A stretch of 64,000 bases of DNA from a virus (lineage: Duplodnaviria > Caudoviricetes), in the IMG/VR virus record IMGVR_UViG_3300036797_000054, positions 58,745 through 122,744 of that record; one strand, given 5' to 3'. This document shows positions 4,931 through 59,649 of this stretch, one piece after another. The notes under the pieces were generated by a model. It made no database searches, was not told the origin of the DNA, and was given only the letters and a program-made list of their open reading frames with translations. Within the stretch, counting starts at the first letter, position 1; each line of letters starts with the position of its first letter. Position numbers and translations under genes: made by a program.

Positions 4931-6772
4931 ATGCCAGATGAGAATGAGCTGCGCGTAGCGCGCAACCTCGCGCTGCCGTTGGCGCTGGTTGGCGAGAGCG
5001 TGGCGATCCTCGCCAAGCGCAACGCGGGCAAGACCTACGCCGCGAGCGTGATCGAGGAGGAGCTGATCAGCCACGGCCAGCAGGTGGTCGTGCTCGACCC
5101 CGTGGGCGTGCACTACGGCCTGCGCTCGAACGCCAAGGGCACAGGCGCAGGGCTGCCCGTGGTCGTGCTCGGCGGCGAACACGGCGACCTTCCGATCAAC
5201 GGCGACTCGGGGACGATCATCGCCGACTTGGTGATCGACGCGTGGCCGCAGTCGTTCGTGATCGACACGTCGCTGTTTGACTCCAACGCCGAACAGGATC
5301 GCTTCGCCGAGGCGTTCGGTGAACGCCTGTACCGCCGCAAGGCGCGCGACAAGCGGCCGATGATGCTCGTGCTGGAGGAGGCCGACACGGTGGCCCCGCA
5401 GTCGCCGATGCCCGATCAGCGCCGCATGGTCGGCGCGTACACGACGATCGCGCGCCGCGGTCGCTCGCGCGGCATCGGCTACCTGGCGATCACGCAGCGC
5501 GCCGCGGCGCTGCACAAGGACTTGACCACGCAGGCCGAGCTCGTCGTCGTCATGCAGATCATCGGCAGCCAGGACCGCGACGCGATCGACAAGTGGGTCA
5601 AGTCCAACGCCACGGCCGAGGAACGCGAGGAAGTGATGTCCTCGCTGCCGAGCCTCCAGCAGGGTGAAGCGTGGGTGTGGTCGCCCGGTTGGCTGCGGTT
5701 GCGCCAGCGGATCAAATTCCGCACACGCCGGACCTTCGACGCATCGCGCACGCCTGCGCCCGGCGAGCAGCGCGCTGAGCCCACGGGCCGTGCCGAGGTC
5801 AATCTCGACGCCGTGCGGGTGCAGATCGAGGCTGCGACGAAGGAGGCCAAAGCCAACGATCCCAAGGCACTGCGCGAGCGCGTGCGCGAGCTGGAACGCA
5901 TGCTATCGCCGCAGAATGCTCCCGAGGATGCCCAGTACGAGCTGGTCTACCCGTTCAGCGATGAGGAACTGGACAATGCGATCGCCGACGCCGAGCAAGC
6001 AATGGCGCGCAACGGCTCTGCGCGCGAGGCCGTGGCGCAGACGATCGCGACGTTGGAAGGCATGTGCAGCGAGCTGCGCGAGGACCAGCCGCGTCTCAAC
6101 CGCCTCCACACCGTCCTCAAATCGTGGCGCGAATCCAAAGAGGACACGATCGCCTCGCTCGACGTGCTGCTCGTCAAGGCCGCAGGCAACCGCGTTGCAG
6201 GCGGTATGAGCCGCCGCGTGGCCCGCAAGGGTGGTTCTGCACCCGTGGCAGCGGCTGCGGCTCAGAACGGCCAGCAGCGCCCGCAGACGGGACAGGACGA
6301 CTCCACGTTGAAGAAGGCCGAACGCACGATCCTCGGCGTGCTGGCGCAGTTCCCCGACGGTCGCTCGGTCAAGCAGCTCGCACTGCTCACGGGCTACTCG
6401 GCCACGAGCGGCGGCTTTCGCAATGCTCTCGGCAAGTTGCGCACCGCGGAGTACATCAGCCGCGATCATCCGGTGCGGATCACCGAAGCGGGAGTCGAGG
6501 CCATCGGCGGCCAGTTCGAGCCGATGCCGACGGGTGATGCTCTGTTCGACTACTGGCTGCGCAAGCTGAAGCGTGCCGAACGCGAGATCCTGAACACCGT
6601 GCGCTACGACGCCATGAGCACCGAGCGCGCCGCCGAGCTCACGGGCTACAGTCCGACCAGCGGCGGCTTTCGCAACGCGCTGGGCAAGCTGCGCACACTC
6701 GACCTGATCGAGAAAGGGCAGCCGATCACGCTCACCGCGGAGTTTGCGAGCGCCGTCTGCAACGAGCTCTAG
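4931..6772 (+). CDS. HerA/FtsK-superfamily P-loop ATPase with two C-terminal HTH-like repeats
   Basis: Walker A AKRNAGKT, VVLDPVG, Walker B LVLEEAD, RRGRSRGI, ITQR; repeated LTGYSxTSGGFRNALGKLRT. Confidence 0.8.
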   Translation: MPDENELRVARNLALPLALVGESVAILAKRNAGKTYAASVIEEELISHGQQVVVLDPVGVHYGLRSNAKGTGAGLPVVVLGGEHGDLPINGDSGTIIADLVIDAWPQSFVIDTSLFDSNAEQDRFAEAFGERLYRRKARDKRPMMLVLEEADTVAPQSPMPDQRRMVGAYTTIARRGRSRGIGYLAITQRAAALHKDLTTQAELVVVMQIIGSQDRDAIDKWVKSNATAEEREEVMSSLPSLQQGEAWVWSPGWLRLRQRIKFRTRRTFDASRTPAPGEQRAEPTGRAEVNLDAVRVQIEAATKEAKANDPKALRERVRELERMLSPQNAPEDAQYELVYPFSDEELDNAIADAEQAMARNGSAREAVAQTIATLEGMCSELREDQPRLNRLHTVLKSWRESKEDTIASLDVLLVKAAGNRVAGGMSRRVARKGGSAPVAAAAAQNGQQRPQTGQDDSTLKKAERTILGVLAQFPDGRSVKQLALLTGYSATSGGFRNALGKLRTAEYISRDHPVRITEAGVEAIGGQFEPMPTGDALFDYWLRKLKRAEREILNTVRYDAMSTERAAELTGYSPTSGGFRNALGKLRTLDLIEKGQPITLTAEFASAVCNEL

Positions 6773-28247: not shown

Positions 28248-28598
28248 ATGGACGGGGAACGGGATATCGAGCCGCTGCTGAGCTGCAACTGCGCGGAGCA
28301 CCGGGCGCTCGCCAAGCTGCCAGCGGACGAGCGCGACGTGGTGACGCGGTTGCCCTACAAGCGCGAGGCGTCGCTGCCGCCCGGTCCTACGAGGCTGACG
28401 CGCGAGGAGGTCAAGGAGAACCAGCGCCACCGGCTCGTGACGGCCATGGCGGAGTCCTGCCGTCGGTTCGGGTTGCCGCATACCTCGGTGCAGGACGTGG
28501 TAGAGCTTTCGGGCGTGGGCCGACGCGCGTTCTATGAGCTGTATGCGGACCTGCACGACTGCTTCGAAGATGCGGTGCGTGTAGCCCGCGAGGCGTGA
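28248..28598 (+). CDS. TetR-family HTH domain-only protein
   Basis: QRHRLVTAMAE.....G...TSVQDVVELSGVGRRAFYELYAD..DCF; ends right after the DNA-binding domain. Confidence 0.75.
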   Translation: MDGERDIEPLLSCNCAEHRALAKLPADERDVVTRLPYKREASLPPGPTRLTREEVKENQRHRLVTAMAESCRRFGLPHTSVQDVVELSGVGRRAFYELYADLHDCFEDAVRVAREA

Positions 28599-29092
28599 AC
28601 CGCGTACGTACGCAGCGCCAGGCGGAAGCGATCGCCGCGGCGCTGGACTACATCCCTGATCGGCTGCTGCCGTTGACGGGCTGCGACATCTTCTGCGCTG
28701 ATCCCTGGTTTGCTGGAGTACATGATCTGCGTGAGGCCGATAACGGCGAAACCGTCGAGCTGCGTGCTCACGCAGTAAATGAGAGCATTACGCGTGATCG
28801 CAGGCGCGTCATCTGCATTCCTGAAGAGGTCGAGGTGGTGACGGTCCTGCACGAGATGGCGCACATCATCGATTACACGCTGTGGGACCGCACCGGTGGT
28901 CGTCATCTGCCCCGCATGGAGCCGATCAATGCCTACGCTGAAAACTATTACGGCGAGGCGTTCGCGGAATCTTTCGTGCAGTGGCTCTACGGCGCGGAGA
29001 TGGTCAACAAGCTGCTGGTCGAGCGCCCGCACATGTGGGATCGCTGGAGCCGCGAGAACGACGAGTGGTGGGATCGTCTGCTGCTGCAATAG
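28595..29092 (+). CDS. zincin-like metallopeptidase
   Basis: VLHEMAHIID...YA.....EAFAESF. Confidence 0.7.
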   Translation: MNRVRTQRQAEAIAAALDYIPDRLLPLTGCDIFCADPWFAGVHDLREADNGETVELRAHAVNESITRDRRRVICIPEEVEVVTVLHEMAHIIDYTLWDRTGGRHLPRMEPINAYAENYYGEAFAESFVQWLYGAEMVNKLLVERPHMWDRWSRENDEWWDRLLLQ

Positions 29093-29123
29093 AACGCCCG
29101 ACTAGCGCGGTAGCCTCTTCTGC

Positions 29124-29192
29124 ATGGCGTTGATCGTTCGCCAGCGGACGTGGGGATGGTCGCGGACGTGGGAATGGTCGCGCCAGGCGTAG
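29124..29192 (+). CDS. leaderless 22-aa Trp-rich mini-ORF (MALIVRQRTWGWSRTWEWSRQA)
   Basis: TAGCCT-N7-ATG, identical for 16 nt to the start at 9981; in-frame 18-nt tandem repeat. Confidence 0.45.
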   Translation: MALIVRQRTWGWSRTWEWSRQA

Positions 29193-29273
29193 CCGCCGGA
29201 GGTCGCCCGTTCAAGCCGGGCCGCGCGAGCACATCGCGCGTAGCTCAGTTGGTAGAGCACCGGCGGCTGCGCC
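29186..29273 (+). ncRNA. circularly permuted tRNA-like RNA (YrlA/Y-RNA-like topology)
   Basis: Order: 14-bp stem 5' strand, AGGTC, T-arm GCCCG-TTCAAGC-CGGGC, acceptor CGCGCGA-gcaca-TCGCGCG, TA, D-arm GCTC-AGTTGGTA-GAGC, A, 14-bp stem 3' strand. Confidence 0.85.
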
Positions 29274-29303
29274 GCGCGCTACACTGCCGCCGCTGCTGAT
29301 CGC

Positions 29304-29392
29304 GCGCCCGTAGCTCAGTGGAGAGCACCGTCCCGTTGGCTCCGAAGGCCGCGAAAGGCGGAGGTCGCAAGTGTCGAGGCTTGCCGGGCGCA
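29304..29392 (+). ncRNA. tRNA-like RNA with 24-nt anticodon-loop region and 8-nt T-loop
   Basis: Perfect 7-bp acceptor GCGCCCG/CGGGCGC, D-stem GCTC/GAGC, CCGTC/GGCGG stem, AGGTC, T-stem GCAAG/CTTGC. Confidence 0.75.
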
Positions 29393-29440: not shown

Positions 29441-29536
29441 GCGCCGGTAGCTCAGTGGTCAAACCTGACCCTCGGGTTGGGGAAGAGCAGCGGTCTTTCA
29501 AGCCGCAGGTCGGCGGTTCGATCCCGCCCCGGCGCA
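29441..29536 (+). tRNA. tRNA with anticodon TTC (Glu) carrying a hairpin insertion in the D-loop
   Basis: Acceptor GCGCCGG/CCGGCGC, anticodon arm GCGGT-CTTTCAA-GCCGC, T-arm GGCGG-TTCGATC-CCGCC; 31-nt D-loop; no encoded CCA. Confidence 0.8.
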
Positions 29537-29581
29537 TCCCCCGTGACGGTGGCGGCCTTGGATCTCTGCCGTCACGGGGGA
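29537..29581 (+). promoter_or_regulatory. 16-bp hairpin between the tRNA 3' end and the pth2 RBS
   Basis: TCCCCCGTGACGGTGG/CTGCCGTCACGGGGGA; 3' arm overlaps GGAGG. Confidence 0.65.
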
Positions 29582-29588
29582 GGGGTCG

Positions 29589-29969
29589 ATGCCTGACCCG
29601 ACGATCCCCATCGTCTACATCGTGTTCAACGGGCCGCTCGGCATGTCGCCGGGCAAGATGACGGCGCAGGCGTTCCAGCTCGCCGAGCGTCTGTTTCGAG
29701 CGGCCGATTCCTACGACGTGCCGATGGGAGAGCGCGTTGACCACCTACAGCGGGTAGGCGCGTGGCGCAAGCACACGACGACGATCACGCGCGTCGCCAA
29801 GACGCCGACGATGTGGGAGCGCGTCAAGGCCGAGGTCGAGGGCGTCGTCATGGTGGACGAGGGCTACACCGAGGTCGAGCCGGGCAGCGAGACGTGCTTC
29901 GCGTCGTGGCCGATGCTGGTGGGCGACGCGCCGAAAATCCTCTCGAACGCCAAGGTGCCGCTGCTGTAG
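29589..29969 (+). CDS. peptidyl-tRNA hydrolase, Pth2 family
   Basis: MSPGKMTAQA...W...DEGYTEVEPGSETC matches the Pth2 MxxGKxxAQ and DxGxT motifs. Confidence 0.85.
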   Translation: MPDPTIPIVYIVFNGPLGMSPGKMTAQAFQLAERLFRAADSYDVPMGERVDHLQRVGAWRKHTTTITRVAKTPTMWERVKAEVEGVVMVDEGYTEVEPGSETCFASWPMLVGDAPKILSNAKVPLL

Positions 29970-58332: not shown

Positions 58333-59649
58333 GTGAGCGTGAGAACGATGAAAGTCGCGATCCGTGGCGACGTGGATGAGAAGGCGATCGCGCAGCTCGA
58401 ACGCTGCGCCCGCGCTGGCCGCGCCCCGCTGGCCGCGCAGATGGCCGACGGGCACTACGGCTACTCCATGAGCATCGGGGGGGTGATCGGCTTCCGCGAG
58501 TACGTCTCGCCGTCCTCGGTGGGCTACGACATCGGCTGCGGCAACAAGGCTGTGCTGACGAACTTGACCGTTGGCGAGATCGATGGCGACGTTGGACGCA
58601 TCATGGACGAGATCACCAAGCGCATCGACTTCGGCGGAGGGCCGGGCTACAAGCCGACTGCGGAGCGCGCCGATCATCCGGTGCTCGATGAGATCCGCGA
58701 GGCCGACTACGTGCCCCAGCGCGCGCTCGCCGAGCTCGCCGCAGCCCAGCTCGGCTCGATCGGGGGCGGCAACCACTACGTGGACCTGTTCGCCGACGAG
58801 CACGGCCGCGTGTGGGTCGGCGTGCACTTCGGCTCGCGCGGCTTCGGCCACCGCACCGCCGAGGAATTCCTGACGCTCGGCAAGACGCTCGACATCAACC
58901 GCGAGAACAGCGAGGACATGGACTCGCCTCCGACGCTGCTGCCCATCGAGTCCGGCCTGGGACAGTCCTACGTCGCGGCGATGGAGCTCGCAGGGCGCTA
59001 CGCCTACGCCGGTCGCGATGTTGCGGTCCAGCGCGTGCTCGGCATCCTCGGGGCCGAACCGCTGCACGAGGTCCACAACCACCACAACTACGCCTGGCAC
59101 GAGCAGCACGAAACCGACACCGGCCTGGAGATGCTGTGGGTCGTGCGCAAGGGCGCGACGCCAGCGTTCCCAGGGCAGGAAGGCTTCGTGGGCGCGACCA
59201 TGGGCGAGCCGAGTGTGATCCTCGCTGGCAAGGGCGGCCCGGCCGCATCCATGCTGATGTTCTCCACCGTGCATGGCGCTGGCCGCGTGATGAGCCGTAC
59301 GCGCGCCGCGGGTAAAACGCGCAAGCGCTGGACGTGCAACACTCGCGACTGCAACTGGTTCCAGCCGCCGCGAACGCACAAGCCCGAGGCGTGCCCGTCC
59401 TGCGGCAACACGAGCATGACCAAGCGCTTCGTGAAAATCAGCGAGGGCGAGATCGACTGGTCGCAGACGCTGGCCGGTCTGCGCGCGAGCGGCATCGAGC
59501 TGCGCGGCGGCGCGGCCGACGAGGCACCCCTGGCCTACAAGCGCCTCGATCAGGTGCTCGACGCCCACTCCGACACGATCGAGATCCTGCACACACTGAC
59601 GCCTCTCGGCGTGGCGATGGCGGGTTCGGAGATCGCGGCCGATGACTGA
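58333..59649 (+). CDS. rtcB: RtcB-family RNA ligase with Zn-ribbon insertion
   Basis: DGHYGY, GYDIGCG, GSIGGGNHY, VHFGSRG, HNHHN, RKGAT, HGAGR, DEAPLAYK. Confidence 0.95.
   Translation: MSVRTMKVAIRGDVDEKAIAQLERCARAGRAPLAAQMADGHYGYSMSIGGVIGFREYVSPSSVGYDIGCGNKAVLTNLTVGEIDGDVGRIMDEITKRIDFGGGPGYKPTAERADHPVLDEIREADYVPQRALAELAAAQLGSIGGGNHYVDLFADEHGRVWVGVHFGSRGFGHRTAEEFLTLGKTLDINRENSEDMDSPPTLLPIESGLGQSYVAAMELAGRYAYAGRDVAVQRVLGILGAEPLHEVHNHHNYAWHEQHETDTGLEMLWVVRKGATPAFPGQEGFVGATMGEPSVILAGKGGPAASMLMFSTVHGAGRVMSRTRAAGKTRKRWTCNTRDCNWFQPPRTHKPEACPSCGNTSMTKRFVKISEGEIDWSQTLAGLRASGIELRGGAADEAPLAYKRLDQVLDAHSDTIEILHTLTPLGVAMAGSEIAADD

What the first reader, a model, noticed from the sequence alone, without database searches (positions are those of the whole stretch)
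29186..29273. Circularly permuted tRNA with acceptor stem closed by a 5-nt loop and anticodon replaced by an open 14-bp helix
Seen: the 3' half (variable loop 29200-04, T-arm 29205-21, acceptor strand 29222-28) precedes the 5' half (29234-59), joined by GCACA. GGCGTAGCCGCCGG pairs with CCGGCGGCTGCGCC, and weaker pairing extends outward (CAGCGG/CCGCTG). Known: this topology matches bacterial YrlA Y RNAs (Ro60/Rsr partners, often near rtcB) and permuted tRNA genes of some algae and archaea. I see no Ro60/TROVE gene in the window and no clear YrlA Ro-binding motif. Inference: it may be a Ro-independent tRNA mimic or a permuted precursor.
Basis: partly seen in the sequence, partly recalled or inferred. 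Interest (0 to 1): 0.85.

Follow-up and report, generated by a model that had tools for sequence, protein, structure and literature searches.

The report
Phage tRNA mimic without Ro60 partner
A roughly 123-kb high-GC phage carries a gene for a small RNA that is a complete tRNA written back to front, with its acceptor end capped and its anticodon loop replaced by a long rod, like bacterial Y RNAs; none of the proteins that normally accompany such RNAs was found, and no diverged relative was found to show that it is conserved.

Summary
Window 29177-29285 (+) folds as described: a 14-bp closing helix, a 5-nt variable loop, a T arm, a 7-bp acceptor stem capped by GCACA, and a D arm (z = -4.7; 0 of 200 shuffles fold as well).

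It matches Rfam YrlA end to end at 41.2 bits, below the gathering score of 69. Permuted elements lying beside Ro60 (TROVE) genes in other phages score only 27-45 bits, so a sub-threshold score does not exclude membership.

The element fails the other YrlA features:
- no GNCGAA-type Ro-binding motif
- no YUAY or V arm
- no internal loops next to the tRNA core
- no TROVE gene in the 122.7-kb record (about 80% complete)

DUF2828 is also absent from the record. DUF7873 is absent from the 30 window proteins scanned.

It is the first of three remodelled tRNA-like genes in a 497-nt gap upstream of a Pth2 gene. RtcB lies 29 kb downstream.

I read it as a Y-RNA-style, anticodon-less tRNA mimic acting as a decoy or scaffold, probably derived from the phage's own tRNA-like family. 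A permuted precursor of a decoding tRNA is not supported.

This scan has often found permuted tRNA mimics in other phages, always with a Ro60-like or DUF7873 partner. No diverged homologue was found, so conservation is untested. I class it as a new variant of a known kind, of moderate interest.

The parts
29177..29285 (+). Whole predicted RNA (el1): a permuted, anticodon-less tRNA mimic on a rod-like stem
   Evidence: Rfam YrlA match over model positions 1-114 at 41.2 bits; MFE fold z = -4.71
29180..29183 (+). Outer 4-bp helix, 5' strand (GCGC); pairs with 29276-29279 across a 2x2 internal loop
   Evidence: MFE fold
29186..29199 (+). 5' strand of the 14-bp closing helix; its inner 5 nt correspond to the 3' strand of a tRNA anticodon stem
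29200..29204 (+). Variable loop AGGTC (C48 available to pair with G15)
29205..29221 (+). T arm: 5-bp stem and canonical 7-nt loop TTCAAGC
29222..29240 (+). Acceptor-like hairpin: CGCGCGA, 5-nt cap GCACA, TCGCGCG (7 of 7 pairs)
29241..29259 (+). U8-A9, D arm (GCTC/AGTTGGTA/GAGC) and A26
29260..29273 (+). 3' strand of the 14-bp closing helix
29276..29279 (+). Outer 4-bp helix, 3' strand (GCGC)
29305..29392 (+). Context, el2: a tRNA-like gene in normal order with a roughly 34-nt irregular anticodon arm and a non-canonical T loop; same GCGCCCG acceptor as the Pth2-linked family
29441..29536 (+). Context, el3: a tRNA (anticodon loop CTTTCAA) with a 25-nt insertion in the D loop; member of a tRNA-like family that precedes pth2 in relatives
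   Evidence: Rfam tRNA 61.9 bits; alignment with relatives
29589..29969 (+). Context: Pth2-type peptidyl-tRNA hydrolase gene
   Evidence: Pfam PF01981, E = 7e-6, above the curated cut-off; 26 homologues besides the window's own protein
58333..59649 (+). Context: RtcB RNA ligase gene, 29 kb downstream
   Evidence: Pfam PF01139, E = 1e-62

Best explanation
The element is a gene for a stable small RNA of about 100-110 nt that mimics tRNA in the manner of bacterial Y RNAs (YrlA). It offers a normal tRNA elbow (D loop docked on T loop) and a 7-bp acceptor stem whose end is capped by a 5-nt loop. The anticodon arm is replaced by a rod of about 20 bp formed by the RNA's own 5' and 3' ends. It cannot decode. 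It most likely acts in trans as a decoy or scaffold for proteins that recognise the tRNA body: RNase P, elbow-modifying enzymes, or a host tRNA-directed nuclease or toxin. It does so without a phage-encoded Ro60-type partner. It probably arose by permutation from the phage's own family of GCGCC(C/G)G tRNA-like genes. It may belong to a tRNA-damage counter-measure set together with the two remodelled tRNAs next to it, Pth2 and RtcB. What is shown: the fold, the tRNA-likeness, the topology, and the absence of detectable partner genes and motifs. What is inferred: transcription, stability, decoy or scaffold action, and any link to Pth2 or RtcB.
For: The fold is exact and much more stable than shuffles (z = -4.71). 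The de-permuted sequence is called as a canonical tRNA. The YrlA model aligns end to end at 41.2 bits, within the 27-45-bit range of permuted elements that lie beside TROVE genes in other phages and metagenome contigs. A chance origin is unlikely: 1 hit in 100 surrogate genomes, none with a closing helix. The helix runs 9 bp beyond what a tRNA anticodon stem could supply, and both acceptor strands differ from the family consensus while keeping 7 of 7 pairs. This points to selection on structure. No TROVE was found by three methods, no DUF2828, no DUF7873 in 30 scanned window proteins including all neighbours, and no Ro motif. The element is on the same strand as the flanking genes, in a 497-nt gap that also holds two other tRNA-like genes and precedes pth2. 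Published YrlA RNAs are substrates of tRNA-recognising enzymes (PMC4201824).
Against: No diverged homologue was found, so there is no covariation or conservation evidence. The only other occurrence is the same phage in another sample, for which no DNA was available. No promoter or terminator consensus was detected, and there are no expression data. The record is about 80% complete, so a partner gene could lie in the missing part. The host is unknown and may supply Rsr. The neighbour el2 looks partly degenerate (z = -0.9), which is compatible with a decaying tRNA array. RtcB is 29 kb away and does not co-occur with permuted elements in 9 other phage records.
Confidence: 0.5

Rival explanations
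1. It is an ordinary Ro60/Rsr-dependent Y RNA of a divergent phage type. Its protein partner is either encoded in the missing roughly 20% of the genome or supplied by the host.
For: It has the same topology as YrlA, and its YrlA score is as high as those of TROVE-linked phage elements. The record is only about 80% complete. GUCGCG at 29177 and 29159 is a 4-of-6 match to GNCGAA. Two phage records that I first counted as TROVE-less turned out to carry a DUF2828 Ro60-like ORF, which shows how easily a partner is missed.
Against: In all 12 TROVE-positive cases examined the TROVE ORF lies close to the RNA: within about 1 kb in 11 and 2.2 kb in one. Here the roughly 29 kb before the element and 35 kb after it in the window, and the whole 122.7-kb record, hold none. 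The strict Ro motif, the YUAY/V arm, the ACAGCAA handle and internal loops next to the core are all absent.
Confidence: 0.2
2. It is a non-functional by-product: the middle of two tandem tRNA-like genes left behind by duplication and deletion in a decaying tRNA array.
For: Its 5' half, including the leader, is 79% identical over 19 nt to the 5' end of el2; el2 and el3 are 95% identical to each other over that stretch. el2 has an irregular anticodon arm and T loop. No homologues were found. Tandem duplication is the accepted route to permuted tRNA genes (my own knowledge).
Against: There are no remnants of the missing outer halves on either side. The acceptor pairs 7 of 7 and the closing helix 14 of 14, with further outer pairs, which neutral debris should not keep. 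All tertiary-contact positions are intact.
Confidence: 0.15
3. It is a cis-acting RNA processing or stability element. A tRNA-like punctuation signal (RNase P) sits on a roughly 20-bp duplex (an RNase III-type substrate) that ends the upstream mRNA and shapes the transcript carrying el2, el3 and pth2.
For: In 5 of 8 relatives the pth2 start codon begins 1-2 nt after the 3' end of a tRNA-like gene. tRNA processing there would create a leaderless pth2 mRNA. The element lies between genes on the same strand with no detectable promoter or terminator. The rod is long and almost perfect.
Against: The capped acceptor stem is not a standard RNase P substrate. None of the seven Pth2 relatives whose DNA was available has a permuted element near pth2. 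Punctuation does not require a full elbow with every tertiary position.
Confidence: 0.12
4. It is a permuted tRNA gene whose transcript is circularised (for example by RtcB) and re-cut to give a working tRNA, as in Cyanidioschyzon merolae.
For: The gene order is 3' half then 5' half. An RtcB ligase is present in the genome.
Against: There is no bulge-helix-bulge motif: the leader-trailer duplex is a continuous 14 bp. No 7-nt anticodon loop can form. No tRNA-splicing endonuclease was found. No CCA is encoded.
Confidence: 0.03

Closest known systems
YrlA, the tRNA-like bacterial and phage Y RNA bound by Ro60/Rsr (Rfam RF02553; Chen et al. 2014, PMC4201824)
   Same: Same order of parts (stem, V region, T arm, loop-capped acceptor-like stem, D arm, stem). 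[quoted passage not shown] The full-length CM alignment scores 41.2 bits, as high as TROVE-linked phage elements.
   Different: The score is below the Rfam gathering score. There is no rsr/TROVE gene next to it or anywhere in the 122.7 kb, no GNCGAAN0-1G motif, and no YUAY or V arm. The stem is a continuous 14-bp helix, whereas about 35 other permuted elements examined have 5 bp or fewer followed by loops.
Phage 'handle' RNAs (closing stem plus ACAGCAA) with a DUF2828 Ro60-like protein, and double tRNA-mimic RNAs beside DUF7873. Both come from earlier notes of this scan, and I know of no publication.
   Same: They are permuted, anticodon-less tRNA look-alikes in phage genomes, often among tRNA genes. 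I confirmed DUF2828 ORFs in three records of my own sample that carry permuted elements.
   Different: There is no DUF2828 in this record, no ACAGCAA handle, a single module instead of two, and the upstream gene is an ATLF-like small metallopeptidase, not DUF7873.
Circularly permuted tRNA genes of Cyanidioschyzon merolae and some archaea
   Same: The 3' half is encoded before the 5' half, and the acceptor strands are joined by a short intervening sequence.
   Different: Those mature into decoding tRNAs through a bulge-helix-bulge site and a splicing endonuclease. Neither is present here, and no anticodon loop can form.
Two-piece tmRNA from permuted ssrA genes (alpha-proteobacteria, some cyanobacteria)
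   Same: The T arm and acceptor 3' strand precede the acceptor 5' strand, and the ends are closed by a long helix.
   Different: This element has a full canonical D arm, no tag reading frame and no pseudoknots, and there is no tmRNA call by ARAGORN or Rfam.

Membership tests
YrlA (RF02553) | Permuted tRNA-like domain: T arm, loop-capped acceptor-like stem, D arm, closed by pairing of the 5' and 3' ends | tested here: met
YrlA (RF02553) | Covariance-model score at or above the Rfam gathering score (69 bits) | tested here: not met
   41.2 bits. Calibration: TROVE-adjacent phage elements score 27-45 bits, and only bacterial-type copies with GGCGAAUG reach 69-76 bits. The threshold therefore does not separate members from non-members in phages.
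YrlA (RF02553) | Encoded next to an rsr (Ro60, TROVE) gene | tested here: not met
   No PF05731 in the 122.7-kb record. No hit with an HMM built from three phage TROVE proteins, nor by tblastn or protein search. The record is about 80% complete.
YrlA (RF02553) | GNCGAAN0-1G motif near the 5' end (likely Rsr contact; PMC4201824) | tested here: not met
   No strict match in 29050-29320; the nearest is GUCGCG, 4 of 6.
YrlA (RF02553) | YUAY at the start of the V loop; stem interrupted by internal loops | tested here: not met
   The helix runs straight into AGGTC. The only YUAY lies 3' of the element. The first interruption is a 2x2 loop after 14 bp.
YrlA (RF02553) | Binds Rsr; carries tRNA modifications; substrate of RNase P and the CCA-adding enzyme | not testable with these tools
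   Needs biochemistry.
DUF2828 + handle RNA (earlier notes of this scan) | DUF2828 (PF11443) gene in the genome, usually nearby | tested here: not met
   No candidate in G000. The same search found it in G003 (weak, 17 bits, below cut-off), G006 and G007.
DUF2828 + handle RNA (earlier notes of this scan) | Closing stem followed by ACAGCAA | tested here: not met
   No ACAGCAA in 29093-29300.
DUF7873 + double tRNA-mimic RNA (earlier notes of this scan) | A protein of about 245 aa (DUF7873) immediately upstream of an RNA of about 330-400 nt with two permuted modules | tested here: not met
   The upstream gene is a 165-aa ATLF-like protein. There is one permuted module. No DUF7873 hit among 30 window proteins. 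The first 58.7 kb of the record was not scanned for it.
Permuted tRNA gene (C. merolae type) | Bulge-helix-bulge site in the leader-trailer duplex, and a mature anticodon loop | tested here: not met
   Continuous 14-bp duplex.
Permuted tRNA gene (C. merolae type) | tRNA-splicing endonuclease available | tested here: not met
   No PF01974 in the record; the host is unknown.
Two-piece tmRNA | tRNA-like domain without a D stem, tag ORF, pseudoknots | tested here: not met
   ARAGORN in tmRNA mode and Rfam tmRNA give no call here; a canonical D arm is present.

The most novel reading that the evidence does not exclude
The phage makes a partner-independent, anticodon-less tRNA decoy. Together with two other differently remodelled tRNAs (expanded anticodon arm; hairpin in the D loop), Pth2 and RtcB, it forms a counter-defence set against host toxins that cut or modify tRNA. 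The decoy soaks up the toxin, the remodelled tRNAs escape it, Pth2 clears stalled peptidyl-tRNA, and RtcB reseals cut tRNA.
Probability: 0.15. Interest if true: 0.8.

Novelty: new variant of a known kind. Interest (0 to 1): 0.48.

Why it matters
Y-RNA-type tRNA mimics are understood only as partners of Ro60. A mimic with a complete tRNA elbow but no Ro60-type gene or motif would show that phages use the scaffold for another purpose, such as decoying tRNA-directed host enzymes. Its position next to two other remodelled tRNAs and Pth2 gives a compact, testable candidate module. The calibration also has practical use: the Rfam YrlA threshold misses Ro60-linked phage Y RNAs, and 'no TROVE' can hide a DUF2828 partner.

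Tried and rejected
- **Close relatives.** None was found by blastn against INPHARED phages, by peptide patterns of the two flanking proteins in IMG/VR, or by a homologue search with the upstream protein. That search found only the same phage in a Logan sample, with no DNA available.
- **Pth2 relatives.** Seven relatives at 57-68% identity were fetched, and none has a permuted element near pth2. The 28 IMG/VR loci of distant Pth2 relatives gave one doubtful candidate, L159, which the YrlA model does not support.
- **A reading I dropped.** I first took G003 and G007 (100% complete) as TROVE-less phages with permuted elements. Both carry a DUF2828 ORF, the G003 match being weak and below the family cut-off, so I withdrew that reading.
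- **RtcB.** It does not travel with permuted elements in 9 other records.
- **Weak Rfam hits.** The Twister-sister match (25 bits, many non-canonical pairs) and the miRNA matches are chance.
- **Not possible.** DUF7873 could not be searched by name across the whole record.
- **Transcription signals.** No sigma-70 promoter or intrinsic terminator was found.
- **Host.** A genome-collection search with the Pth2 alignment found nothing, so the host stays unknown.

Full report
**Where the window lies.** The window is bases 58745-122744 of a 122,744-bp linear IMG/VR virus record, estimated about 80% complete. It is 67% G+C. Around the finding, the ORFs with gene-like codon bias are almost all on the + strand.

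**The observation.** In order it has:
- a 14-nt strand
- the variable loop AGGTC
- a T arm with a canonical TTCAAGC loop
- a 7-nt acceptor 3' strand
- the cap GCACA
- the complementary acceptor 5' strand
- TA, a D arm with an AGTTGGTA loop, then A
- the strand complementary to the first 14 nt

ViennaRNA reproduces this as the MFE and centroid structure. It adds a 2x2 internal loop and four outer G-C pairs. The energy is -69.2 kcal/mol, z = -4.71, and no shuffle in 200 is as stable.

I joined the two halves through a borrowed 7-nt loop, and ARAGORN called a normal 76-nt cloverleaf. My structural scan (T arm 5/5, acceptor at least 6/7, D stem 4/4, GG in the D loop) finds one hit in the real genome, with a 14-bp closing helix. 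Across 100 composition-matched surrogate genomes it finds one hit in total, with a 1-bp helix. The feature is real and is not chance.

**Comparison with YrlA.**
- At gathering thresholds Rfam reports only two tRNAs in the window.
- With E-value reporting, YrlA (RF02553) aligns over its whole length to 29177-29285 at 41.2 bits (gathering score 69; E = 1.6e-7 locally, 5e-9 for the genome). In that alignment the model's internal loops are deleted.
- I calibrated the score on elements fetched from IMG/VR and metagenomes by a pattern for 'T loop, 24-30 nt, D arm', filtered for acceptor complementarity.
- Bacterial-type copies carrying GGCGAAUG reach 69-76 bits (L253, L251).
- Permuted elements beside a TROVE ORF in L078, L052, L120, L226, L247, L278, L184 and G011 score only 27-45 bits, mostly over the tRNA-like core.
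- A sub-threshold score is therefore no argument against membership.

**Other YrlA features.** Chen et al. (PMC4201824) describe YrlA as encoded next to rsr. It carries GNCGAAN0-1G near the 5' end and a YUAY that opens the V loop. None of these is present here.

In the 12 TROVE-positive cases I examined, the TROVE ORF lay within about 1 kb of the RNA in 11 and 2.2 kb away in one. Here the flanking genes are an ATLF-like 165-aa HExxH protein and Pth2. No TROVE is detectable in the whole record by the Pfam model, by an HMM built from three phage TROVE proteins, by tblastn, or by a phage TROVE protein query.

**A correction prompted by earlier notes of this scan.** I first counted two complete phage records with permuted elements (G003, G007) as TROVE-less. 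Earlier notes describe two further partner types for such RNAs: a Ro60-like DUF2828 protein with 'ACAGCAA-handle' RNAs, and DUF7873 with a double tRNA-mimic RNA.

I tested DUF2828 (PF11443). G007 and G006 have it above the family cut-off, and G003 has a weak match (17 bits, below cut-off) 3.5 kb from its element. I therefore withdrew the claim that partner-less elements recur in complete phages.

G000 itself gave no DUF2828 candidate. No DUF7873 appeared among 30 window proteins scanned with Pfam, including every neighbour. No ACAGCAA handle is present. DUF7873 could not be searched across the first 58.7 kb of the record.

**How this element differs from the others.** I scored about 35 distinct permuted tRNA-like elements across all fetched loci. 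This is the only one whose core is closed by a long continuous helix: 14 bp, against 5 bp or fewer followed by loops or a V arm in the rest. It looks like a class I tRNA with its anticodon loop opened and the stem extended.

**Surroundings.** The 497-nt gap between the ATLF-like gene and pth2 holds, in order:
- an 18-nt tandem repeat at 29144-29179
- the element
- el2 (29305-29392), a tRNA-like gene with a roughly 34-nt irregular anticodon arm
- el3 (29441-29536; Rfam tRNA 61.9 bits; 25-nt D-loop insertion; loop CTTTCAA)
- a long hairpin at 29537-29581
- the pth2 ribosome-binding site

The 5' halves of the three RNAs are paralogous.

Pth2 homologues at 57-68% identity sit in metagenomic phage contigs, some rich in tRNA genes. 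One contig also carries NAMPT, NUDIX, a CCA-adding enzyme and Rnl1. In all seven fetched contigs a GCGCCCG-acceptor tRNA-like gene lies directly upstream of pth2. Its D-loop length varies, and in two contigs its 'anticodon' loop is too short. None of the seven has a permuted element there.

The element therefore looks like a lineage-specific derivative of this local family. Both acceptor strands and two T-stem pairs have changed in step relative to the family consensus. The rod extends 9 bp beyond an anticodon stem. These are signs of selection on structure, but they are indirect.

**Mechanism.** The RNA cannot decode. It has no bulge-helix-bulge site, and the record has no splicing endonuclease. 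Maturation into a tRNA is therefore very unlikely, despite the RtcB gene at 58333-59649.

I commit to a trans-acting tRNA mimic that binds tRNA-recognising proteins as a decoy or scaffold, without a phage Ro60-type partner (0.5). The rivals are:
- a classic Rsr-dependent Y RNA whose partner is in the missing DNA or in the host (0.2)
- debris of a decaying tRNA array (0.15)
- a cis-acting processing or stability element (0.12)
- a permuted tRNA gene (0.03)

**Limits.**
- No diverged homologue was found in any collection.
- The same phage occurs in Logan run SRR11834745 with the same 497-nt gap, but no DNA was available.
- There is no covariation test, no expression evidence, no promoter or terminator, no host, and the genome is incomplete.

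**Verdict.** This is a new variant of a known kind (a Y-RNA-type tRNA mimic), distinguished by its rod-like stem and by the absence of every known partner and motif. Interest is moderate. The scan has found many permuted tRNA mimics in other phages, but those have partners, and this one is so far a singleton.

Noticed in passing
window 29441-29536; L133:858-952, L135:4898-4999 and 5544-5639, L132:4921-4999, L134:4867-4943, L137:3052-3123, L138:1878-1957, L136 about 1290-1368: A tRNA-like gene family with acceptor GCGCCCG/CGGGCGC lies immediately upstream of pth2 in all seven fetched relatives. Most members have the loop TCTTTCAAG with covarying anticodon stems. The D loop ranges from normal size to a hairpin insertion of about 25 nt. 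Two members have 5-6-nt 'anticodon' loops (L136, L137).
   Followed up: partly
L133:952-956, L135:4999-5003, L132:4999-5003, L137:3123-3126, L138:1957-1960: In 5 of 8 loci the pth2 start codon (ATG or TTG) begins 1-2 nt after the discriminator base of the tRNA-like gene. tRNA 3' processing would therefore leave a leaderless pth2 mRNA. The window, L134 and L136 instead have a 52-78-nt spacer (with a Shine-Dalgarno sequence in the window).
   Followed up: partly
window 29305-29392: el2 is a tRNA-like gene in normal order, with a roughly 34-nt irregular anticodon arm and a non-canonical T loop (6-bp stem and 6-nt loop in the MFE fold). Its fold is not better than shuffles (z = -0.9).
   Followed up: partly
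window 29124-29192 and 29144-29179: An 18-nt tandem repeat (two copies, 94% identical) lies inside a 22-codon ORF with four Trp codons. The ORF's TAG stop falls in the 5' strand of the closing helix. There is no Shine-Dalgarno sequence and no conservation data.
   Followed up: no
window 29537-29581: A long hairpin lies between el3 and the pth2 ribosome-binding site (z = -2.9). It has no T run, so it is not a standard terminator.
   Followed up: no
L253:2069-2665 (-), L377 (two elements), L112, L124, L184, L251: Permuted tRNA-like elements often come in arrays of two to four per locus. Those beside phage TROVE genes fall well below the Rfam YrlA gathering score, so the model under-detects phage Y RNAs.
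   Followed up: partly
G003:C1:107285-107464, G007:C1:32292-33131, G006:C1:6996-7742: Phage records that carry permuted tRNA-like elements but no PF05731 match do carry a DUF2828 (PF11443) ORF of 485-573 aa (the G003 match is weak, 17 bits). 'No TROVE' by Pfam alone is therefore misleading.
   Followed up: yes
window 28595-29092: The gene directly upstream of the element encodes a 165-aa HExxH protein resembling small anthrax-lethal-factor-related metallopeptidase domains (weak PF07737 match; ESM Atlas neighbours 0.96). It has no homologues outside this phage in the 5.8-billion protein set.
   Followed up: partly
L138:6690-8335, L133:1561-3905, L136:2185-4577: Contigs of Pth2 relatives carry NAMPT plus NUDIX (NAD salvage) together with dense tRNA arrays. 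L138 also has a CCA-adding enzyme and a T4 Rnl1-type ligase. This is a typical phage tRNA-repair and NAD-restoration island.
   Followed up: no
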